Shown here: positions 15,050 through 32,000 of the stretch, piece by piece | Position numbering within the stretch: position 1 is the stretch's first letter | Layout of the letters: each line of letters opens with the position of its first letter | Assembly: GCF_000013905.1 (NCBI RefSeq) | Contig: NC_007968.1 | Span: forward strand, 1-32,000 | Direction: 5' to 3' | Source: Psychrobacter cryohalolentis K5 | GTDB taxonomy: Bacteria > Pseudomonadota > Gammaproteobacteria > Pseudomonadales > Moraxellaceae | DNA: 32,000 nt | Made by a program: the position numbers and the translations under genes | The notes under the pieces: model-generated | Databases searched by the model: none | What the model saw: the letters and a program-made list of their open reading frames with translations, nothing else | What the model was told of the DNA's origin: nothing

Positions 15050-16213
15050 TTAAGGAGTTAAAATGACTTTACGACATTCTTCTTCACGCTTTTCGAAAAT
15101 TTCATAACCTTTAGCAGCGTCAGACAAATTCATACGGTGAGTAATAATAGCTTCAGGTGATAAATCACCATTTTCAATATACTCTAATAATTGTGGTAGA
15201 TACTTGTGTACATGGGTTTGGCCCATTTTGAAAGTAAGCCCTTTATCAAAAGCATCACCAAATAAGAAACCATGAATGGGTCCTGCATACACACCCGGAA
15301 CACTAACGACCCCGCCACGACGCACAGCTGCAATACATTGACGTAAAGCTGCACCACTTGACCCTTCAATTTTTAAATTGGTCATTATTGTTTCTAGCAT
15401 GCTGCCTTTGGCTTCAAAGCCAATCGCATCGATAACGCTGTCAACGCCGCGATGCCCTTTGGTCTGTTCAATAATAAATTCAGCAGCATCTACCTTATCG
15501 AAATTAACCGGAATAGCACCGTAGGTATCTTTCGCGTACTGCAAACGGTAGTCATTATGATCTACCACGAAGATCTGCTCAGCGCCTAACATTTTGGCAC
15601 AAGCTGCTGATAACAACCCCACAGGACCCGCACCATAAATAGCTACGGTTGAACCTTTAGTAATATTGGCATTAGTCACCGCCTGCCAAGCAGTCGGTAA
15701 AATATCTGATAAAAATAAAACCTTCTCATCTGACAGTGAGCCATTTACTTTGAACGGATTAAAATTACCTTTAGGAACCCGTACAAATTCTGCTTGTCCA
15801 CCAGGAATCCCACCATATAAATGGCTAAAACCAAATAAAGCAGCCGGTGGCGGAATTATTTTTTTATTAATAGCAGCGCCTGGGCCTGTATTTGTAGTCT
15901 CACAAGCGGACATTAGGTCATGCTGACAGAAAAAGCAGTTACCACATGCAATAACAAAAGGAATAACAACTCTATCGCCTTTTTTAACAGCAGTGACTTC
16001 AGAGCCTACTTCTTCAACCACGCCCATAAACTCATGACCGAAGATATCGCCTTCCTCGGTTGCAGGCATTTTGCCACGATACAGGTGTAAATCTGAGCCA
16101 CAAATTGCAGTCGCAGTCACACGTAAAATAACATCATCTTTTTCTTGCAGTTTAGGCTCTGGGACATTGTCCACTCGCACATCTTTAGCACCGTGGTAAG
16201 TTAAAGCACGCAT
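15050..16213 (-). CDS. Zinc-dependent alcohol/formaldehyde dehydrogenase family oxidoreductase (MDR superfamily)
   Basis: Supporting motifs are [24 protein letters not shown], the structural-Zn cysteines CGNCFFC and the Rossmann motif [10 protein letters not shown]. Confidence 0.85.
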
Positions 16214-16423
16214 AATTTCTCCAATTAAGCAAAGATTGCAAAATCTCGATAAACAATAATCTGTGATAATACAAGATGAAAGTTATTAGAATCAGTGGTT
16301 TATGTTATCTAAGTTAAGTATTACTCAATTATATTAGCACCTTGAAAAACAAGATTTATAATCAACGTGTGTTAAAAAGGTTGCGTGTTGTAAGTAAAAA
16401 ATTGTAGTGGTCAACTAATTTAG

Positions 16424-21588: not shown

Positions 21589-22599
21589 ATGAGCAATTTA
21601 ATAAAAAGTATTAGAATAAAAAGATTGTTTGATGAAAAAGACGTTAGTTGGGAACTAAAAAAAATTAATGTCTTAGTTGGTAAGAATGGATTGGGTAAAT
21701 CTACTATTCTTAGGTTGATAAATGCTGCCGTCACTTTAAAACAAGTTGAAGACTTAAATTTATGTGAAGAAGTAAGCGTAGTAATGAAAGATGAAGAAAA
21801 ATACACTTCGAAAAAAAATAATTTAATAGATATTGAGATGTTAAAATTAGTTATAGAGGAGCTATCAAGGTTTGAAAAAAATTCTAGGAAAGATAAAAAT
21901 TCAGATAGCCATTATGTAAAATATAAAAGATTAAGCAATGATGAACTAAAAGAATTAACGACAGATTTGTTCAAAAAAATAAATAAAAATGCAACTAACT
22001 ATGAAATAGAGGATAATGATAAGAAATTAAATATCAAAAGAGATAATCAAGTTTTTAAACCTAAAAAAAAGATGCCTGTAGAGTTTATATCTACGATAAA
22101 TATGAGTGCGAACTCAGTAAATAACGTTATTGAGAGTGACGGAAATAAGACAACTTTTTTAGACGTAGAGATTGATAAGGAAGTAGAAAGACTAAATAAG
22201 GATCATAGAAACAAAGATGAACTACAAGAAAAGTTTATGAGTTCGTTAAACAATTTTTTTGAAGAAACCAACAAAAAAGTAGAGTTTGTAGACGATAAGA
22301 TAGAAATACTACTAATTAGTGGAAAGAGAATAGACTATCGCAACTTATCTTCTGGAGAAAGGCAGTTAATATTTATATTCCTAAAAATAATAAATGGCGG
22401 CGTTGATAACTCATTGATATTAATGGATGAACCAGAAATATCATTACATCTTTCATGGCAAGAAAAACTATTAACAGAGATCACAAATGCTAATAGCTCA
22501 AGCCAGATGATAATAGTAACTCATAGCCCAGCTCTAGTTATGGACGGTTGGCTAGACAACTTCATAGACATAAAAACCATAACAGAAGAAGTGTGGTGA
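21589..22599 (+). CDS. ABC-type (AAA_21/AAA_15-like) ATPase with a Lys/Glu-rich coiled-coil insertion; AriA-like
   Basis: Motifs are Walker A GKNGLGKST, signature-like LSSGERQ, Walker B LILMDEPEISLH and IIVTHSP. The insertion of about 200 aa is charged. Confidence 0.7.
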   Translation: MSNLIKSIRIKRLFDEKDVSWELKKINVLVGKNGLGKSTILRLINAAVTLKQVEDLNLCEEVSVVMKDEEKYTSKKNNLIDIEMLKLVIEELSRFEKNSRKDKNSDSHYVKYKRLSNDELKELTTDLFKKINKNATNYEIEDNDKKLNIKRDNQVFKPKKKMPVEFISTINMSANSVNNVIESDGNKTTFLDVEIDKEVERLNKDHRNKDELQEKFMSSLNNFFEETNKKVEFVDDKIEILLISGKRIDYRNLSSGERQLIFIFLKIINGGVDNSLILMDEPEISLHLSWQEKLLTEITNANSSSQMIIVTHSPALVMDGWLDNFIDIKTITEEVW

Positions 22600-22604
22600 G
22601 CGAC

Positions 22605-23591
22605 ATGTCAGAGTTTCATGACTTCTTTACTAGTAAAAATTTTATTGGCGCTTATAACGTTTTTTCATCTGGAGATATTAAAGATAAAAATAAAGGGATT
22701 ATTTATGTTGAAGATGCCTCTGATTACTCATTTTGGGAAGGGTTTATTGGCTATCATTACCCAAATGAATATATGTGCCGCCCTTCTTCAAAAGAAGGTA
22801 AAACAGTAACTGGCAAGAGGTTTTTAGAGAAAATATATAAAGATGCTAATGAAAAGATAATAATCGCAGTTGATAGTGACTATGACTACATTGCTTCTAA
22901 GGTACAAGAAGACCACATATTCAATCATAATAAATATGTTATCCATACTCATGGATTTAGTAGAGAGAGTGTCCAGATTGAAAAAGATAGTTTAGATCAT
23001 TTTTTCAAGCTATGTAGGTTAACTATCCCTAACACCGTTAACTTATCAAGCTTCTTAAATGATTTCTCTGAAATAGCTTTTAAAGGACTGGCTAAATATA
23101 TTGTTATTCTCAATAGAATTGATTACAGCAATATATATGATAGCGAATTCAATTCATGTTTCCATCTTCTTGATGAAAACATGGTTGATGAGAACTTACT
23201 AATCAGCAAATCCGGTATTGAAAAAATAGAGAAGAAAATGGACTTATTCTTCGATGATAAATGCATCTACGAAGACGATATAATAAAATCAGAATATTTC
23301 TTAAATGATATAGGAATTAATAGGGATAATGCTTATAGGTTTATATCAGGTCATGTTCTTTTTGACTTAATCAAAAAAATACATAAAATAAATTTATCTC
23401 AGCTAATGAAACACGAGATAAAGAATATCAATAAGAATGTAACTGGAAATGAAATAAAAGACAGGGTTAATCAAGTAAAGACTCGGTTTAATGACTCCTT
23501 TAGCTTTGATACTTACTGTCATATGCGTCAAGTAGATCTTGAAGATGAAGTCCATAAGTTCATACTCTCAGCCATTAAAAATATTAAATGA
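22605..23591 (+). CDS. DUF4435/TOPRIM-like protein; AriB-like predicted nuclease
   Basis: IIYVEDASDYSFWEG and IIIAVDSDYDY are Toprim-type acidic motifs. The start is the ATG at 22605, or a GTG at 22596 that forms a GTGA overlap with the upstream stop. Confidence 0.6.
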   Translation: MSEFHDFFTSKNFIGAYNVFSSGDIKDKNKGIIYVEDASDYSFWEGFIGYHYPNEYMCRPSSKEGKTVTGKRFLEKIYKDANEKIIIAVDSDYDYIASKVQEDHIFNHNKYVIHTHGFSRESVQIEKDSLDHFFKLCRLTIPNTVNLSSFLNDFSEIAFKGLAKYIVILNRIDYSNIYDSEFNSCFHLLDENMVDENLLISKSGIEKIEKKMDLFFDDKCIYEDDIIKSEYFLNDIGINRDNAYRFISGHVLFDLIKKIHKINLSQLMKHEIKNINKNVTGNEIKDRVNQVKTRFNDSFSFDTYCHMRQVDLEDEVHKFILSAIKNIK

Positions 23592-25446: not shown

Positions 25447-25506
25447 AAATTACTCTCTATTTGGTTTTTAGCGGTCACTAATATGAGTACAAGGTGCTAT
25501 TTATAG

Positions 25507-25643
25507 TTTGCTCATAATTTGCTAGCGAAATGCTCGCAGTTTGCTTAGTTTTTGCTTGTATTTTGCTCATAATACAGCTTTCTTATTATATTTGCTCATA
25601 ATTTGCTAGTGAAATGCTCGTAGTTTGCTTAGTTTTTGCTTGT
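25507..25643. repeat. Two 53-bp direct repeats (25507-25559, 25591-25643; 2 mismatches) built from TTGCT motifs phased at 11 bp
   Basis: TTGCT/ATGCT occurs at 25508, 25519, 25530, 25541, 25552 and 25563, and again at 25592, 25603, 25614, 25625 and 25636. Confidence 0.85.
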
Positions 25644-25655
25644 GTAACGCTCTTA

Positions 25656-25815
25656 TAAGCCTTTTTAGCCAAAAAGGCTTACCACAGGTAGAAAATAACC
25701 GATTTTTCTACCTGATTTTTGGTCATTAAATTATCCAATTTAATGACTACACCTTACGCACCCTCTCGGGATGAAAAAAATCGTCTTAAATCAGCAACTT
25801 ACCTGATTTAAGACG
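25656..25815. repeat. Four consecutive perfect hairpins (stems of 11, 11, 11 and 13 bp)
   Basis: The hairpins are 25656-25681, 25685-25714, 25722-25747 and 25782-25815. I read them directly. Confidence 0.85.
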
Positions 25816-25907
25816 CTCTTTTCTGTACACAAAATGTTTACAAAATAGACTTAAGTAACTGATTTTTATGATATATTTCTGTCTACAATCTGTAAACAAG
25901 GATAATC

Positions 25908-26282
25908 ATGAGCACCCCTATCGTATCATTTAGATTAAAGCCAGAAATCTACCTAAAACTAGAAGCGATAGCCGCAGAAGCAGGGCAAACGCCTGGTGGC
26001 TACTTGAAGAAAAAATTGGAGTCAGATACCAATAACTTTCTTGAAGATCTTCAGTTTATGAAAGGAGATATTAGTGAGATTCTGCACTTATTGCAGTCAG
26101 ACGATAAAGGATCAAAGGCAGTAGAGAGCACATCAAATCAGAATGAGATGATGAAGGCTTTGATGCCGATAGTGCTAGAATCGTTATTGATATTAAGAGA
26201 GGTAGCAGCCCCTAATAAGGTTTCCAATGCTCAAAGATTGGTCGATAAAGCAGGAATAAAAGCATACAATAGTTTGGATTAA
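25908..26282 (+). CDS. Ribbon-helix-helix (CopG/MobC-like) domain protein
   Basis: The N-terminal IVSFRLKPEIYLKLEAIAAEAGQTPGGYLKKKL has an RHH pattern. Confidence 0.5.
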   Translation: MSTPIVSFRLKPEIYLKLEAIAAEAGQTPGGYLKKKLESDTNNFLEDLQFMKGDISEILHLLQSDDKGSKAVESTSNQNEMMKALMPIVLESLLILREVAAPNKVSNAQRLVDKAGIKAYNSLD

Positions 26283-26298
26283 CAATTAAATGTATATT

Positions 26299-26331
26299 GC
26301 CCTTGTATCAGCTGATACAAGGGCTTTTTTT
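26299..26331 (+). terminator. Rho-independent terminator
   Basis: The perfect palindrome GCCCTTGTATCAGCTGATACAAGGGC is followed by T7. Confidence 0.8.
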
Positions 26332-26580
26332 GAAAAGCTATTTGATAATAAGAGATTGATCCTTGATAGCGTAGTCATAAGAATCACTGGAATTCTAACG
26401 ATCTTCCGAAGATTTTAGTTGATATAAACAATCATGGAACTGTGCAAGCTCATATAAGCCGTCTAAGGAGGTTAAAATTTTTTTACCTAGTAACTTACCA
26501 AACGATACTTAGAACCTTATAGGGAGCTTAATACGATGTTATTAGCTATCTTTGACTAGTGCTTTGATCTCTCTTTTTAA

Positions 26581-28030: not shown

Positions 28031-29158
28031 ATGACAGACTTAAATAAAGAAATTGATAAAGCAAGACACAATGTTCGAACAGATAGCTATTCTATGTCTA
28101 TAGGCGAACTCGCTAGTATGTACGAAGATAATGAACTAGAAATACATCCGGCTTTTCAAAGAGTTTTTCGATGGAGTGATGAGCAAAAGAGTAATTTTAT
28201 AGAATCTATATTCTTAGGTATTCCAATCCCTTCTATATTTGTTTCTCAGCGCCAAGATGGCGTTTGGGATTTAGTGGACGGCCTTCAAAGATTATCAACC
28301 ATTTTCTCTTTTATGAATAAACTGAAGGATGAAGAAGGAAGTATTAGAGACCCATTCACTCCTGAGGCAACTAAGTATCTACCATCTCTTAAAGGAAGAA
28401 AGTGGGGAACAGAAGATTTAGACTCTGCCGACTTACTATCGAACAATCTCAAACTCTTGTTCAAAAGACAAAAGATAGCTGTAAATATTATAGAACGTGA
28501 AAGTGACGATGATGCTAAGTTCGAGCTATTTCAGCGGTTAAACACGGGAGGATCTGCTTTATCTCCACAAGAGGTCAGAAACTGTTTATTGATAATGTTA
28601 AACAATCAGGCTTTTGATTTTATTCAGGCTTTAACTAAAGATGAATCATTTCAAAAAACAGTCCTTGTTACAGAGGCGAAGGAAGATCAAGCATATTATT
28701 ATGAACTCGTATTGAGGTTCTTTATTAACAGACATGCATCTGATGAAATACGATCAAAGCATAGTGATGTACATCCTTATCTTAACAATGAAACAATCCG
28801 ATTATTTGATATTAACTCAGATTTTGAATACAACAAAGAAAGAGAGGTGTTCAAAAATACTTTTGAGCGTATAGCTCTTGCCCTAGGAGATGATGCGTTT
28901 AAAAAATACAACCCTCAAAAAGATAGATATGAGGGGGCTTTTAGCTTACCTGTGTTTGAGGCTATATCTACAGGCATATCGTTCCTAGTAGAAAGCGATG
29001 ATTATAATGAGGATGCTATAGTTGTAGTTATAGCAGCTAAGACAAAAGAGCTTATAGATAATAATGATTTTACAAACTCTTATGCTACTCGGATTAGACC
29101 TATAGACAGAACTAAGATAATGATTGGTATAGGTCGGAGTTTGTTTTGTGAGGATTAG
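28031..29158 (+). CDS. DUF262 (ParB/Srx-like, GmrSD N-terminal type) domain protein lacking a DUF1524/HNH nuclease domain
   Basis: Supporting motifs are IHPAFQRVFRWSDEQKSNFIESIFLGIPIPSIFV, WDLVDGLQRLSTI (a DGQQR variant) and FELFQRLNTGGSALSPQEVRNC. Confidence 0.8.
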   Translation: MTDLNKEIDKARHNVRTDSYSMSIGELASMYEDNELEIHPAFQRVFRWSDEQKSNFIESIFLGIPIPSIFVSQRQDGVWDLVDGLQRLSTIFSFMNKLKDEEGSIRDPFTPEATKYLPSLKGRKWGTEDLDSADLLSNNLKLLFKRQKIAVNIIERESDDDAKFELFQRLNTGGSALSPQEVRNCLLIMLNNQAFDFIQALTKDESFQKTVLVTEAKEDQAYYYELVLRFFINRHASDEIRSKHSDVHPYLNNETIRLFDINSDFEYNKEREVFKNTFERIALALGDDAFKKYNPQKDRYEGAFSLPVFEAISTGISFLVESDDYNEDAIVVVIAAKTKELIDNNDFTNSYATRIRPIDRTKIMIGIGRSLFCED

Positions 29159-29798
29159 AAATCTTGAACAACTGGAAAAATCGATGGTTAGCGACTTAAC
29201 TTGGCGTAGACGAGAGCTGACTACATTGAAGTTCATGATTCAGGAAAATAGCGCTATCCATAAGAAAAATATATTACACAGAGCTGCTATAGCCTTATTG
29301 TATTCACATTGGGAAGGACATGTTAAACATTGCTCTTTAGTTTATTTGAGTTATCTAAATAGCTTGGGTCTTCACTGTGATCAGATAGCAGATAACTTTA
29401 TACAACTAAATCTAAGCTCTTATTTTGATGTAAATCTTTCAATGAAATCTACAAAGAATCAAAAGGCCATCCATGATTACTTTTCTCGTTTGTCTGATGT
29501 TACGTTCAAAGTTGTAGAGAATAAAACAATAGACACTAAGTCGAATTTAAACTCTGAGGTTCTTTTAAATATACTCTCGCAATTGGGCCTTCCGAGTAAT
29601 GAATTTGAGTTGAAGAGTACGTTGATAGACACAGTTTTGCTAAAAAATAGAAATGCTGTGGTTCATGGAGAGATGTTGAATGCTGATGGCTTGAGAAATA
29701 CATATAATGAAATAGAAGATGATTTATTGTATTTGATCGAAACATTCCATAATCTTGTTAACAGTGCGGCAGCTAATGGTCTCTATCTAAAACAGTAG
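29148..29798 (+). CDS. HEPN-domain protein (MAE_28990/MAE_18760-like), predicted RNase
   Basis: The Rx4H motif RNAVVH sits in LLKNRNAVVHGE. DLTWRRRELTTLKF and LLYSHWEGHVK are as I recall for this family. The GTG start overlaps the upstream gene by 11 nt, and an alternative ATG lies at 29184. Confidence 0.6.
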   Translation: MRIRNLEQLEKSMVSDLTWRRRELTTLKFMIQENSAIHKKNILHRAAIALLYSHWEGHVKHCSLVYLSYLNSLGLHCDQIADNFIQLNLSSYFDVNLSMKSTKNQKAIHDYFSRLSDVTFKVVENKTIDTKSNLNSEVLLNILSQLGLPSNEFELKSTLIDTVLLKNRNAVVHGEMLNADGLRNTYNEIEDDLLYLIETFHNLVNSAAANGLYLKQ

Positions 29799-29812
29799 CT
29801 ATCTTTTCAAAT

Positions 29813-30763
29813 CTATGGGGAGTAAGGACCAAGAAACCTTACTCCATTAAAATGAATGAGATGAGAAGGAGCATCCGCTACCCAAACTTCTGTTTCCCAT
29901 GCAATTTCACTAAGATAACGACCCATTAGAGCTCTATTCGGAAAAGCTGTCACATAAACTAGCCCAGCAGTTGATTCTGAAAACAACTTAGAAAGCTCTT
30001 CATATCTTTTTCCGTCAACAGGTCCATGGCTAGTGACAGACTCAACTAATAACAGCCAGTTTTTTTCAGTGTAGTGCAATACGACGTCAGGCATTTTACC
30101 GTGTGAACCTACATCCACATTCAGTTCTTTCAGTAGCTCTTTGTCAAAATACCCCCACTTTTTCTCTGTGTCACCGGCATAAATCAAGATACTATTTGGT
30201 GCAAAACGTTCTGCAAAATCTTCAATAATATCTTTGATAAGCTCGCTATGAATACCAGGACTCAATGTAATTTCTTTACCATCTGCAATTCTTACAGGAA
30301 TACGATTTTGCTCTCGCTCTTTAGCATAACGCTCAACAAGCGATGTACGATCAGCTAAATAGCGTTCTAGGTGGCTGTGCCATGATGTAGTCCCATAAGT
30401 GCGAAGCAGGGTCAATACGTGAGGTTCGATTTGATAAACGGCCTTTGGACTATTGACGGGTCGGTCTGGCTTATCTGGATTATAAAGAGCTATACCTGCA
30501 TCACAAAACTGATGCATTGTTTGGCGACGAACTGTTTCCCGTGTGTTAGGAGCATAATCTTTACTGTAATGCTCACGGGCCCAATTCATGATAGGTGTAA
30601 TTCCCATTAACGGGCTTTTTACTTGTGTCCAGCTCTTACCTGGAGAAAGGTCTAGAAGAGCTAATAAAGTTAAGGCTGAGCGTTCATTATATTGTGCAGT
30701 AGGTAGACCTAAGCAAGCTATAATTTGTAGAGCTGCCTCAATGTGATCATCTTGTGTATTCAT
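29813..30763 (-). CDS. BsuBI/PstI-family type II restriction endonuclease
   Basis: The 316-aa size and GKMPDVVLHYTEKNWLLLVESVTSHGPVDGKRYEEL resemble this family (from memory). Its start overlaps the end of the methyltransferase gene. Confidence 0.6.
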   Translation of the reverse strand: MNTQDDHIEAALQIIACLGLPTAQYNERSALTLLALLDLSPGKSWTQVKSPLMGITPIMNWAREHYSKDYAPNTRETVRRQTMHQFCDAGIALYNPDKPDRPVNSPKAVYQIEPHVLTLLRTYGTTSWHSHLERYLADRTSLVERYAKEREQNRIPVRIADGKEITLSPGIHSELIKDIIEDFAERFAPNSILIYAGDTEKKWGYFDKELLKELNVDVGSHGKMPDVVLHYTEKNWLLLVESVTSHGPVDGKRYEELSKLFSESTAGLVYVTAFPNRALMGRYLSEIAWETEVWVADAPSHLIHFNGVRFLGPYSP

Positions 30764-32000
30764 TAAATTAAATCTCTAAATTGAGCATCAATGCTCTCTT
30801 GTGTGATATTTTTTTGTTCTAAAGCCCACTCACCAAGCTTAAATAAATTTTCACGGCTAGGGTACTTCATCTGCTTAAGATCTGTTGCATTGACCTGAGT
30901 ATGACCACTAAACCGCCTAAAATGCTCATCTACTGCGGTAGTGTTCAGGTATACCATAAGTCCACTTGCTAATGCCTCAGGCAAGCCGTTTTTATTGTCG
31001 TGGAATACGTTTAAGTGGTTTTCAAACCCCAGCATCGTGTATTCGCTAAAATCAGTAGGGTTTATCAAGTTTGCAACCATACGACGTTTTTCCTCCTTCG
31101 ACGAAAAACGTTTCACTACACAGTAAAATCCGTTAGGGTAAAGCCATTTCTCTGTATCGTTATTGGCTACGATTGCATTAGATTTTTTAAAGTTAGGTAT
31201 AGGCCAAGTGGTTTTATATGCCTTTAAGTGGGCTGGATAAATCAATGGCACAGCCCCTTCTTCAGGCCTATCTCGTAAATACTCTTTCAATCGGAAATCA
31301 ACTACTGGGCCAGTTGATAGCTTTATACCAATGTCAGCCATTGAATAACGCACAGCAGATGATAATTCGATGGCACTTTTCTCGGTCGTAGTCTGCACGT
31401 GAATAAACCGTTCTGGATCATCTGGAAATACTATGCGCTCAAAAGGAATTTCACAGTTAGTTAGGTCAGAAAAACTATCGTCAGTAGAGGTTGAGATAGT
31501 AACAGGTCCTTGCTTTCCATCACGTTCTAAGCAAATAATGATATTCTCTTGTAGTACCTGATCATCGCTAAAAGCTTTGCTGCGCGATTCAAACAAATGC
31601 ATCTGATGTATCGCTGCCCGTTCAAGAATGAAGTCGCGGAAAGGGCGATAATAAGGGCCATTGCAGAAACTGCGTGGAATAATAGCTACCATTTGGCCAC
31701 CTGGAGCCATCTCTCCCAGCGCTAATGCTATAAAAGCGGAATATAAATTAACTGTTTCAATACCAACACTACTTAAAGCTAATCGGTGCGCTGATTTACT
31801 ATTGATTTTTTTATAAGGTGGATTCAGAATTACGTGAGTGTAACCTTGATCCTGCAGACCTTTGTCTGTTGCCAGTTTGATGTAATCGTCAGAGAAAATA
31901 CGAGTTGTCACATGATCGTATGAGTTTAGATGCTGACTAAGATAGTTCGTCAGTTTCTTATCGATTTCGAAAGCGGTTACATCAACATCATTAAACCCAA
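30763..32000 (-). CDS. N6-adenine DNA methyltransferase (M.PstI/M.BsuBI/Eco57I-like); 5-prime end lies beyond the window
   Basis: The catalytic motif is VILNPPYKK. The reading frame stays open upstream of the listed GTG to base 32000 (...GFNDVDVTAFEIDKKLTNYL...), so the gene is cut by the window edge. Confidence 0.8.
   Translation of the reverse strand, partial: GFNDVDVTAFEIDKKLTNYLSQHLNSYDHVTTRIFSDDYIKLATDKGLQDQGYTHVILNPPYKKINSKSAHRLALSSVGIETVNLYSAFIALALGEMAPGGQMVAIIPRSFCNGPYYRPFRDFILERAAIHQMHLFESRSKAFSDDQVLQENIIICLERDGKQGPVTISTSTDDSFSDLTNCEIPFERIVFPDDPERFIHVQTTTEKSAIELSSAVRYSMADIGIKLSTGPVVDFRLKEYLRDRPEEGAVPLIYPAHLKAYKTTWPIPNFKKSNAIVANNDTEKWLYPNGFYCVVKRFSSKEEKRRMVANLINPTDFSEYTMLGFENHLNVFHDNKNGLPEALASGLMVYLNTTAVDEHFRRFSGHTQVNATDLKQMKYPSRENLFKLGEWALEQKNITQESIDAQFRDLI

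What the first reader, a model, noticed from the sequence alone, without database searches (positions are those of the whole stretch)
28031..29798. Overlapping DUF262 + HEPN gene pair: candidate uncharacterised defence system
Seen: two co-directional genes overlap by 11 nt (GTG 29148 and stop 29156-29158). The first encodes a 375-aa protein with the DUF262 motifs (FQRVFRW, DGLQR, FQRLNTGGSALSPQEVRN) and an alpha-helical C-terminal half. It has no DUF1524/HNH nuclease module. The second encodes a 216-aa protein with an Rx4H HEPN motif (RNAVVH) near its C-terminus. Established: DUF262 is the NTP-binding ParB-like module of GmrSD, BrxU and SspE, where it is fused to a DUF1524 DNA nuclease. HEPN Rx4-6H domains are usually RNases of abortive-infection and TA systems. 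Inference: this looks like a GmrSD-type sensor whose DNase is replaced in trans by an RNase effector. The pair sits between a plasmid replicon and a convergent type II R-M locus, with only 14 nt between the stops, which is a defence-island context. I know of comparative-genomic mentions of a DUF262-HEPN association but of no named, experimentally characterised system with this layout.
Basis: partly seen in the sequence, partly recalled or inferred. Interest (0 to 1): 0.8.

Follow-up and report, generated by a model that had tools for sequence, protein, structure and literature searches.

The report
DUF262 sensor plus HEPN RNase pair
This is a real, strongly conserved two-gene operon (a ParB-like DUF262 NTPase and a HEPN ribonuclease) of the same design as the already validated E. 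coli anti-phage system PD-T4-2, so it is a distant new member of a known kind rather than a new kind of defence.

Summary
Gene A (28031-29158, 375 aa) is a DUF262/GmrSD_N protein with no HNH module. Gene B (29148-29798, 216 aa) is a RiboL-PSP/MAE_28990-type HEPN protein with an invariant RNxxxH motif. They overlap by 11 nt. The window is a 41-kb Psychrobacter cryohalolentis plasmid.

The pair is not a chance neighbourhood. In 88 of 88 loci holding a B relative, an A homologue lies directly upstream on the same strand. The B family has about 2,900 clusters at 50% identity.

The claim that no named, tested system has this layout is wrong. PD-T4-2 (Vassallo 2022) is listed as "DUF262, HEPN" with the same Pfam families, and it protects E. 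coli against T4.

I located PD-T4-2 and compared it directly. A is homologous (29% identity, E 7e-23). B shares only the Pfam family and the catalytic motif, and PADLOC models do not recognise it. It is therefore a distant, untested sister family.

One new point emerged. The window's closest relatives are three-gene prophage cassettes, A-B plus a convergent N6-adenine methyltransferase that co-diverges with them. PstI-family R-M genes also recur beside divergent A-B pairs. Functional coupling to DNA methylation is possible but unproven.

The parts
28031..29158 (+). Gene A: 375-aa ParB-like DUF262 (GmrSD_N) NTPase domain (aa 30-187) plus an alpha-helical C-terminal half (NsnA-type 'ParBDB' region). 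No DUF1524/HNH.
   Evidence: The PADLOC NsnA model covers aa 13-352 (1.1e-61); PD-T4-2_A covers aa 23-288 (5.2e-31). AF2 model pLDDT 83.6; best PDB folds are BrxU, SspE and ParB-CTP structures. 70 columns are invariant in 37 homologues, including D83 G84 Q86 R87 and F42 Q43 R44.
28277..28291 (+). DGLQR motif of A. It corresponds to the DGQQR NTP-binding/hydrolysis motif of GmrSD, BrxU and SspE.
   Evidence: Sequence. D83, G84, Q86 and R87 are invariant. The role of the motif is taken from the literature.
29148..29798 (+). Gene B: 216-aa stand-alone HEPN protein (RiboL-PSP / MAE_28990 type), the predicted RNase effector. GTG start.
   Evidence: AF2 model pLDDT 92.1, all-alpha. Invariant residues: W19 R20 E23 Y52 H54 W55 E56 G57 N133 L134 G147 R168 N169 H173 G174.
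29649..29666 (+). Rx4H HEPN catalytic motif RNAVVH (R168...H173).
   Evidence: R168, N169, H173 and G174 are invariant in 25 sequences. The equivalent His (H127 in RNAAAH) of PD-T4-2B was chosen for mutagenesis by Vassallo et al..
29148..29158 (+). 11-nt A/B overlap (translational coupling). GGAG Shine-Dalgarno at 29136-29139.
   Evidence: The modal overlap in relatives is 4 nt (ATGA), and 11 nt in Psychrobacter-type relatives.
29813..30763 (-). Convergent BsuBI/PstI-family type II restriction endonuclease (316 aa). Adjacent, possibly linked, but not required for the A-B family.
   Evidence: The same REase family lies beside divergent A-B pairs in viral loci L110/L112, L136, L149 and L150. However, 53 of 56 viral PstI-like loci lack A-B.
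30763..32000 (-). Eco57I/PstI-type N6-adenine DNA methyltransferase. It is cut by the window end; the full protein is 488 aa in the plasmid record.
   Evidence: It is homologous over its full length (24% identity, E 3e-39) to the MTase that follows an A-B pair in Terrisporobacter phage TVCOM_ph1.

Best explanation
A and B form an autonomous two-gene anti-phage (anti-mobile-element) operon of the PD-T4-2 design.

Proposed mechanism:
1. A is the sensor/switch. Its ParB-like DUF262 domain binds and hydrolyses an NTP, and its helical C-terminal half binds DNA. Together they recognise some feature of invading DNA.
2. B is the effector, a HEPN ribonuclease. It probably acts as a dimer that forms a composite Rx4H active site.
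3. B is held inactive, most likely in a complex with A, since the genes are translationally coupled. It is released or activated when A is triggered.
4. Active B cleaves RNA (tRNA, rRNA or mRNA; the target is unknown), which halts translation and phage growth.

Shown here: the domains, the conserved catalytic residues, purifying selection, near-obligate synteny, the mobile-element context, and homology of A to PD-T4-2A.

Shown in the literature for PD-T4-2 only: protection against T4 in the native strain ECOR65 and in K-12.

Inferred: the trigger, A-B complex formation, RNase activity and the RNA target.
For: - Domains and motifs.
- Synteny: A lies directly upstream of B in 88 of 88 loci across Proteobacteria, Chloroflexota, Cyanobacteria, Acidobacteriota, Bacillota and Bacteroidota, usually with a 4-nt overlap. 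It does so again in 58 of 61 viral contigs.
- Autonomy: genes beyond the pair are heterogeneous and often housekeeping, so the cassette moves as a unit.
- Location: relatives sit at classic defence/moron positions. These include the region between the cI-like repressor and the integrase of prophages, a P2-like Klebsiella phage between tail genes, and the end of E. coli phage P2_4B2 next to the replication gene. PD-T4-2 itself lies in a P4-like satellite between psu and int.
- Selection: dN/dS is 0.07 for A and 0.10 for B.
- Homology: A versus PD-T4-2A gives 29% identity over aa 23-231, E 7e-23. PD-T4-2B homologues carry PF18735, the top Pfam family of B.
- Function of PD-T4-2: validated against T4. 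A HEPN His mutant was built as one of four site-directed mutants reported essential.
- Structure: the A model resembles BrxU, SspE and ParB-CTPases.
- Plasmid context: the plasmid also carries a PARIS-like AriA/AriB pair and a type II R-M, so it is defence-rich.
Against: - There is no functional data for this family.
- B shows no significant similarity to PD-T4-2B beyond the motif: BLASTP E 5.6, and profile-profile E 0.057. No PADLOC model hits B or any of five other partner proteins tested (a sixth, Mcat32's, hit no model at E <= 0.01).
- Foldseek found no PDB match for the B model, so the HEPN fold rests on Pfam HMMs and the motif.
- Whether PD-T4-2 acts by abortive infection or directly could not be read from the held text.
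- The repeated methyltransferase linkage in the window's own clade hints that the two-gene picture may be incomplete.
Confidence: 0.6

Rival explanations
1. The pair is one arm of a methylation-linked system. One version: A reads the methylation state set by the neighbouring N6-adenine methyltransferase, or by the PstI-type R-M here, and fires B on unmarked or foreign DNA. That would be a restriction-modification logic with an RNase effector. The other version: A-B guards the R-M as the HEPN anticodon nuclease PrrC guards EcoprrI, firing when a phage disables restriction.
For: - Every close relative of the window pair examined (Citrobacter, Aeromonas, Acinetobacter, Haemophilus, Saccharicrinis and Psychrobacter-type prophages) has a convergent 416-447-aa (ORF-called up to 440) N6_Mtase abutting or overlapping the 3' end of B.
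- That MTase co-diverges with A and B: 45-63% identity where A is 48-73%.
- Non-homologous MTases occupy the same place in other variants. These are C5 MTases in E. coli phage P2_4B2 and Moraxella phage Mcat32, and an Eco57I/PstI-type MTase in a Terrisporobacter phage.
- PstI-family R-M genes lie beside divergent A-B pairs in four further viral clusters. One of these is a fused M-R gene 35 nt upstream of A on the same strand.
- Among 111 neighbours of 39 non-redundant viral loci, 11 carry N6_Mtase, 5 N6_N4_Mtase and 4 Eco57I domains.
- PD-lambda-5, a ParB-like protein plus a D12 methylase, is a validated defence system.
Against: - Most of the family has no methyltransferase nearby. Outside the window's own subclade, 0 of the genome loci match the tested MTase types, apart from one C5 MTase about 3 kb away.
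- PD-T4-2 has no MTase neighbour and works alone in K-12 without reported toxicity.
- The window pair has lost the cognate MTase, yet it is intact and under purifying selection.
- 53 of 56 viral PstI-like R-M loci lack A-B, and the closest relatives of the window R-M lack it.
- GC content differs between A-B (33-36%) and the R-M (39-43%).
- Defence genes cluster in hotspots in any case.
Confidence: 0.2
2. The pair is a toxin-antitoxin-like addiction module for the plasmid or prophage. B is a HEPN RNase toxin and A is its neutralising partner. Its main role would be maintenance of the element rather than phage defence.
For: - HEPN toxins form TA pairs (HEPN-MNT; own knowledge).
- The pair lies next to the replication gene of a plasmid that also carries RelE/ParE.
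- The genes have overlapping reading frames.
- The pair is always on mobile elements in the window's clade.
Against: - A is a 375-aa NTPase/DNA-binding protein with 70 invariant columns in a 37-sequence alignment. It is not a small labile antitoxin or an MNT.
- Many family members are chromosomal, beside housekeeping genes.
- The tested analogue PD-T4-2 gives phage protection.
Confidence: 0.08
3. A itself is the nuclease (a ParB/Srx-fold DNase acting on foreign DNA), and B is a regulator or a second, minor effector.
For: - ParB/DUF262 domains were annotated as nucleases in comparative-genomic work.
- PADLOC REase_II model PDLC03418 gives a weak hit to the N-terminus of A (3.2e-07).
Against: - In the studied relatives (GmrSD, BrxU, SspE) the DUF262 domain is an NTPase/sensor, and cleavage is done by DUF1524, which A lacks.
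- The catalytic R and H of B are invariant.
- A HEPN His mutant of PD-T4-2 is among the mutants reported to lose protection.
Confidence: 0.07

Closest known systems
PD-T4-2 (Vassallo et al. 2022, E. coli ECOR65)
   Same: - Two co-directional genes: a DUF262 protein without DUF1524, then a small HEPN protein of the RiboL-PSP/MAE_28990 type with an RNxxxH motif.
- Both are carried on a mobile element.
- The A proteins are homologous: 29% identity, E 7e-23. Both also match the NsnA model over their full length.
   Different: - B is 216 aa against 167 aa, and has no significant pairwise or profile similarity outside the motif.
- No PD-T4-2_B model hits B.
- A scores 106 bits on PD-T4-2_A, against 538 bits for a genuine member.
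- PD-T4-2 lies in a P4-like satellite with no methyltransferase.
- The window family has not been tested.
Menshen (NsnABC)
   Same: A has the NsnA architecture, ParB-DUF262 plus a helical 'ParBDB' half. NsnA is its best PADLOC hit (207 bits, aa 13-352). Menshen effectors are mostly RNases, so the logic is the same: a sensor coupled to an RNase.
   Different: There is no NsnB ABC ATPase and no NsnC inPIN effector next to A. The nearest ABC ATPase is 5.4 kb away and is AriA-like. Genuine PD-T4-2A scores 197 bits on NsnA as well, so that model is generic for this architecture.
GmrSD / BrxU / SspE type IV restriction enzymes
   Same: They share the N-terminal DUF262 NTPase fold and a DGxQR motif. 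BrxU and SspE are the top two structural matches that are restriction enzymes (ranks 1 and 3 overall).
   Different: A has no DUF1524 His-Me nuclease. The effector is a separate HEPN protein, so RNA rather than DNA is the predicted substrate.
PrrC-EcoprrI / RloC (R-M-linked HEPN anticodon nucleases; own knowledge, with mention)
   Same: An NTPase regulatory module plus a HEPN RNase, encoded beside restriction-modification genes.
   Different: In PrrC the NTPase is an ABC-type domain fused to HEPN, and the partner is a type I R-M. Here the NTPase is ParB-like, sits on a separate protein, and the R-M is type II. No interaction has been shown.
DUF262-Schlafen fusion EcoSlfn7 and PD-lambda-5
   Same: EcoSlfn7 fuses DUF262 to a tRNase effector and defends against T7 and other phages. 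PD-lambda-5 pairs a ParB-like protein carrying weak HEPN-like matches with a DNA methylase, and it is a validated defence.
   Different: These use different effector folds or fused architectures, and no sequence relationship was tested here.

Membership tests
PD-T4-2 | First gene: a DUF262 protein lacking DUF1524 that matches the PD-T4-2_A model. | tested here: inconclusive
   DUF262 only. PD-T4-2_A gives 5.2e-31 and 106 bits over aa 23-288, against 538 bits for the genuine E. coli protein. BLASTP to genuine PD-T4-2A gives 29% identity, E 7e-23, over the N-terminal 210 aa only.
PD-T4-2 | Second gene: a HEPN protein that matches a PD-T4-2_B model. | tested here: not met
   No PADLOC hit at E <= 1, although the three PD-T4-2_B models score genuine PD-T4-2B at 7.9e-64, 3.3e-37 and 1.2e-32. 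BLASTP E 5.6. hhalign of family profiles gives E 0.057 with 13 aligned columns. The two do share Pfam PF18735 and the RNxxxH motif.
PD-T4-2 | Protects against phage (T4) when expressed. | not testable with these tools
   This needs plaque assays.
Menshen (NsnABC) | An NsnA-like protein (ParB-DUF262 + ParBDB). | tested here: met
   NsnA model 1.1e-61, aa 13-352 against profile positions 42-359 of 385.
Menshen (NsnABC) | An NsnB ABC ATPase (AAA_15 + DUF3696) immediately downstream, followed by an NsnC inPIN-effector gene. | tested here: not met
   The downstream gene is the 216-aa HEPN protein, followed by a convergent REase. The only ABC ATPase in the window is best matched by AriA and lies 5.4 kb upstream.
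GmrSD / BrxU / SspE (type IV restriction) | A DUF262 N-terminal NTPase domain with a DGxQR motif. | tested here: met
   PF03235 at 1.2e-27. DGLQR is invariant. Structural hits to BrxU and SspE have probability 0.93-0.97.
GmrSD / BrxU / SspE (type IV restriction) | A C-terminal DUF1524 His-Me/HNH nuclease. | tested here: not met
   There is no Pfam hit other than GmrSD_N at E <= 1. The C-terminal half is all-helical in the model.
HEPN superfamily, RiboL-PSP / MAE_28990 families | A Pfam model above the gathering score, and a conserved Rx4-6H motif. | tested here: met
   PF18735 scores 110.8 bits (cut-off 28.4). PF18737 scores 91.1 bits (cut-off 26.8). R168 and H173 are invariant in 25 sequences.
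HEPN superfamily, RiboL-PSP / MAE_28990 families | A HEPN four-helix fold similar to solved HEPN structures. | tested here: inconclusive
HEPN-MNT toxin-antitoxin | A partner that is a minimal nucleotidyltransferase. | tested here: not met
   The partner is a DUF262 protein.

The most novel reading that the evidence does not exclude
In the window's clade, the DUF262-HEPN pair is the 'restriction' arm, or the guard, of a DNA-methylation module. Under this reading a ParB-like NTPase reads methylation set by a co-inherited gamma-class N6-adenine methyltransferase, or monitors a PstI-type R-M. It responds by unleashing an RNase instead of cutting DNA. That would be a restriction-modification logic with an RNA-directed effector. 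The Psychrobacter plasmid would then be a natural variant in which the cognate methylase was swapped for a complete PstI-like R-M.
Probability: 0.2. Interest if true: 0.7.

Novelty: new member of a known kind. Interest (0 to 1): 0.35.

Why it matters
- The family is large and cross-phylum: about 2,900 B clusters at 50% identity, and at least 580 loci among species-representative genomes. It has the same design as PD-T4-2, yet PADLOC v2 does not detect it, so defence censuses under-count this class.
- PD-T4-2 has no known mechanism. A well-conserved sister family gives useful material for working out how a ParB-like NTPase controls a HEPN RNase. B has 15 invariant residues, including a second motif, YSHWEG. 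The models are confident.
- The repeated, co-diverging methyltransferase partner is a concrete and cheap hypothesis to test.

Tried and rejected
- NCBIfam gave no hit for A or B.
- PDB sequence searches gave no relative for A or for the B profile.
- Promoter and terminator scans found nothing above shuffled expectation. There is no terminator between the convergent genes.
- tblastn of B against 50,697 phage records gave no match, although A-like genes with divergent HEPN partners are present there.
- Menshen membership is rejected because NsnB and NsnC are absent. The high NsnA score is generic, since genuine PD-T4-2A scores 197 bits on the same model.
- Type IV restriction (GmrSD) membership is rejected because DUF1524 is absent.
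- A regex screen for methyltransferase motifs missed known cases and was dropped.
- No room for a remnant of the lost cognate MTase in the window: only 14 nt lie between the B stop and the REase stop.
- Profile-profile comparison of the B family with the PD-T4-2B family aligned only the catalytic motif.
- The idea that the window's A-B and R-M were inherited together is rejected. Their closest relatives are found apart, and their GC content and divergence differ.
Full report
**What is there.** The window is part of the 41,221-bp circular plasmid NZ_CP022042.2 of Psychrobacter cryohalolentis FDAARGOS_308. Window coordinate equals record coordinate plus 1445.

Gene A runs 28031..29158 (375 aa). 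Gene B runs 29148..29798 (216 aa, GTG start). Both are on the + strand and overlap by 11 nt. The stop of B lies 14 nt from the stop of a convergent ORF.

RefSeq starts B at ATG 29184, but the longer form is better supported:
- Its first 12 residues align with the conserved N-terminus of 24 homologues of 213-255 aa, most of them 213-222.
- A GGAG sits 8 nt upstream of the GTG.
- The same 11-nt overlap is called in Psychrobacter-type relatives.

**Domain assignments.**
- A matches only GmrSD_N/DUF262 (PF03235, 1.2e-27, aa 30-187).
- B matches HEPN_RiboL-PSP (PF18735, 1e-31) and HEPN_MAE_28990 (PF18737, 1.5e-25).
- The convergent genes are a BsuBI/PstI-type REase and an Eco57I-type N6-adenine MTase.
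- The upstream gene is a Rep3 initiator.
- NCBIfam has no model for A or B.
- In 37 A homologues, 70 columns are invariant, including FQR and D83-G84-x-Q86-R87.
- In 25 B homologues, R168, N169, H173 and G174 of the Rx4H motif are invariant. So is a second motif, Y52-x-H54-W55-E56-G57.
- AlphaFold models are confident: B has pLDDT 92, A has 84.
- The A model resembles BrxU, SspE and ParB-CTPase structures at modest E-values.
- The all-helical B model finds nothing in the PDB by Foldseek. No solved structure is related by sequence.

**Is the pairing real?** Yes.
They span Proteobacteria, Chloroflexota, Cyanobacteria, Acidobacteriota, Bacillota and Bacteroidota.
- In all 88 loci examined (80 from that scan and 8 from look-ups), an A homologue lies immediately upstream on the same strand. 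It is mostly 366-383 aa, mostly with E between 1e-71 and 1e-197. The usual overlap is 4 nt.
- The same holds in 58 of 61 viral contigs. The other three loci show no A, two of them cut near the contig end.
- Genes beyond the pair are heterogeneous and often housekeeping, so the two genes form an autonomous cassette.
- An exhaustive profile search finds 2,919 B clusters at E <= 1e-3, almost all stand-alone proteins of about 215 aa. A has more than 6,500 relatives among the 8,000 candidates scored.
- Against a Psychrobacter relative, dN/dS is 0.07 for A and 0.10 for B.

**Is it already known?** Largely, yes.
- Vassallo et al. 2022 list PD-T4-2 as 'DUF262, HEPN'. HHpred gives PF03235 for PD-T4-2A, and PF18735 then PF18737 for PD-T4-2B.
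- Deleting PD-T4-2 from ECOR65 restores T4 plaquing, and the cloned system protects K-12.
- A PD-T4-2B H127A construct exists. The mutagenic primer shows the motif RNAAAH.
- A review tabulates PD-T4-2 under both DUF262 and PF18735.
- Anantharaman et al. [quoted passage not shown] Makarova et al. 2013 made a similar remark.
- DUF262 coupled to RNase effectors also occurs in Menshen, in ptuXYZ and in the DUF262-Schlafen fusion EcoSlfn7, which defends against T7.

**Direct comparison with PD-T4-2.** I used the 50-nt homology arms of the published lambda-Red deletion primers to find PD-T4-2 in 17 complete E. coli genomes.
- In strain 2009C-3133 it lies in a P4-like satellite between psu and the integrase at ssrA. 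It consists of a DUF262 protein and a 167-aa 'HEPN domain-containing protein', with no methyltransferase nearby. Both primer arms match exactly.
- As a positive control, PADLOC scores these proteins at 538 bits (PD-T4-2_A) and 213 bits (PD-T4-2_B). The A protein also scores 197 bits on the Menshen NsnA model.
- The window A scores 106 bits on PD-T4-2_A and 207 bits on NsnA. The window B hits no PADLOC model. The same pattern holds for every other A-B pair tested.
- Window A versus PD-T4-2A: 29% identity over aa 23-231, E 7e-23.
- Window B versus PD-T4-2B: BLASTP E 5.6. Profile-profile comparison of the two families aligns only the 13 columns around the RNxxAH motif, E 0.057.
- Even so, close PD-T4-2B homologues carry a precomputed PF18735 hit.

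So the window pair has the same architecture and the same Pfam families as PD-T4-2. Its A protein is homologous and its B protein is very divergent. It is a sister family, not a member of PD-T4-2 as currently modelled. It is also not Menshen, because NsnB and NsnC are absent.

- All close relatives of the window pair examined (B identity 39-74%) are prophage-borne three-gene cassettes. They come from Citrobacter, Aeromonas, Acinetobacter, Haemophilus, a Bacteroidota MAG and Psychrobacter-type prophages. Each has A, then B, then a convergent 416-447-aa (ORF-called up to 440) N6-adenine methyltransferase whose 3' end abuts or overlaps that of B. The cassette usually sits between a cI-like repressor and the integrase or recombination genes.
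- The methyltransferase is orthologous across these loci and co-diverges with A and B. It shows 45-63% identity where A shows 48-73%.
- Only the Psychrobacter plasmid lineage (the window and L010) has a PstI-like REase plus MTase in that position instead.
- Other variants carry different methylases at the same place. E. coli phage P2_4B2 and Moraxella phage Mcat32 carry a C5 MTase. Terrisporobacter phage TVCOM_ph1 carries an MTase homologous over its full length to the window MTase.
- BsuBI/PstI-family R-M genes lie beside divergent A-B pairs in four further viral clusters. To the window, A is 41-43% identical where A is present (three of the four), B 24-37% and the REase 41-59%. One case is a fused M-R gene 35 nt upstream of A on the same strand.
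- Among 111 neighbours of 39 non-redundant viral loci, 11 carry N6_Mtase, 5 N6_N4_Mtase, 4 Eco57I and 4 BsuBI_PstI_RE domains.

**Evidence against an obligate link.**
- Most of the family, in chromosomes of Chloroflexota, Cyanobacteria and others, has no methylase nearby.
- PD-T4-2 has none and works alone.
- 53 of 56 viral PstI-like R-M loci lack A-B, and the nearest relatives of the window R-M are among them.
- A-B and the R-M differ in GC content (33-36% versus 39-43%) and in divergence from L010 (dS 1.8 for A, 0.7 for B, 0.27 for the REase). The window junction is therefore a secondary recombination.
- A-B remain under purifying selection without the cognate methylase.

**Most likely mechanism (confidence about 0.6).**
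- The pair is an autonomous PD-T4-2-type defence operon.
- A is a ParB-like NTP-dependent switch with a DNA-binding helical half. It senses invading DNA.
- B is a HEPN RNase held inactive until A is triggered.
- RNA cleavage then stops translation and phage growth.
- Domains, conserved catalytic residues, synteny, context and homology of A are shown. The anti-phage role is shown only for PD-T4-2. The trigger, complex formation, RNase activity and RNA target are inferred.

**Rivals.** They are a methylation-linked system or PrrC-like guard (0.2), an addiction module (0.08), and A acting as a DNase (0.07).

**Verdict.** The pair is real, widespread and probably defensive. It is a distant new member of a known kind, not an uncharacterised class. 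Interest is moderate at 0.35. It comes from a detection gap in current defence catalogues and from the testable methyltransferase coupling.

Noticed in passing
window 21589-23591 (+): A 336-aa AAA/ABC ATPase followed by a 328-aa DUF4435 protein. They match PADLOC AriA (2e-39) and AriB (1.7e-23). This is a PARIS-like two-gene defence system on the same plasmid, about 4.4 kb upstream of gene A.
   Followed up: partly
window 29148-29184: RefSeq (WP_041753797.1) starts gene B at ATG 29184. This drops 12 N-terminal residues that are conserved in homologues. GTG 29148, with a GGAG 8 nt upstream, is the likelier start.
   Followed up: yes
L002, L006, L008, L011, L017, L094-L106 (relatives of the window pair): A conserved three-gene prophage cassette: A, B and a convergent 416-447-aa (ORF-called up to 440) N6-adenine methyltransferase (NPPF motif). 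The methyltransferase co-diverges with A and B across Gammaproteobacteria and a Bacteroidota MAG. The window lineage has replaced it with a PstI-like R-M.
   Followed up: partly
L110/L112, L136, L149, L150 (IMG/VR contigs): BsuBI/PstI-family R-M genes lie next to A-B pairs that are only 24-43% identical to the window pair. They occur as separate genes or as a fused 827-838-aa M-R protein, and in several different gene orders.
   Followed up: partly
L216 1504-2022 (phage RB49, NC_005066.1 115041-115559): T-even phages of the RB49 group encode a 172-aa protein whose start is 34% identical to aa 3-101 of A (the DUF262 N-terminus). It lies two genes downstream of a phage DNA methyltransferase. It could be a decoy or an anti-defence protein; its function is unknown.
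   Followed up: no
window 28031-30763 versus L010: Divergence from the Psychrobacter relative L010 is mosaic: dS is 1.8 for A, 0.7 for B and 0.27 for the REase. This points to recombination within the block.
   Followed up: no
L092 4104-4766 (Klebsiella phage ST16-OXA48phi5.4): In a P2-like phage, a 407-aa A homologue is followed by a 220-aa partner. The motif region of that partner reads YRGDYAHA, so the HEPN Arg/Asn are not conserved. The effector may be degenerate or of a different type.
   Followed up: no
plasmid record NZ_CP022042.2 (L001): The plasmid carries two replication initiator genes (record 15519-16400 and repM 25479-26426). It also carries an IS982 transposase, a RelE/ParE pair, a Fic protein and ParA/ParG. 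It looks like a cointegrate, accessory-rich replicon.
   Followed up: no
L215 6001-7603 (E. coli 2009C-3133): The published coordinates for PD-T4-2 span 1,540 bp. The two lambda-Red primer arms are 1,603 bp apart in this genome. RefSeq starts the DUF262 gene a further 33 nt upstream. This is a small discrepancy in the published coordinates or in start-codon choice.
   Followed up: no
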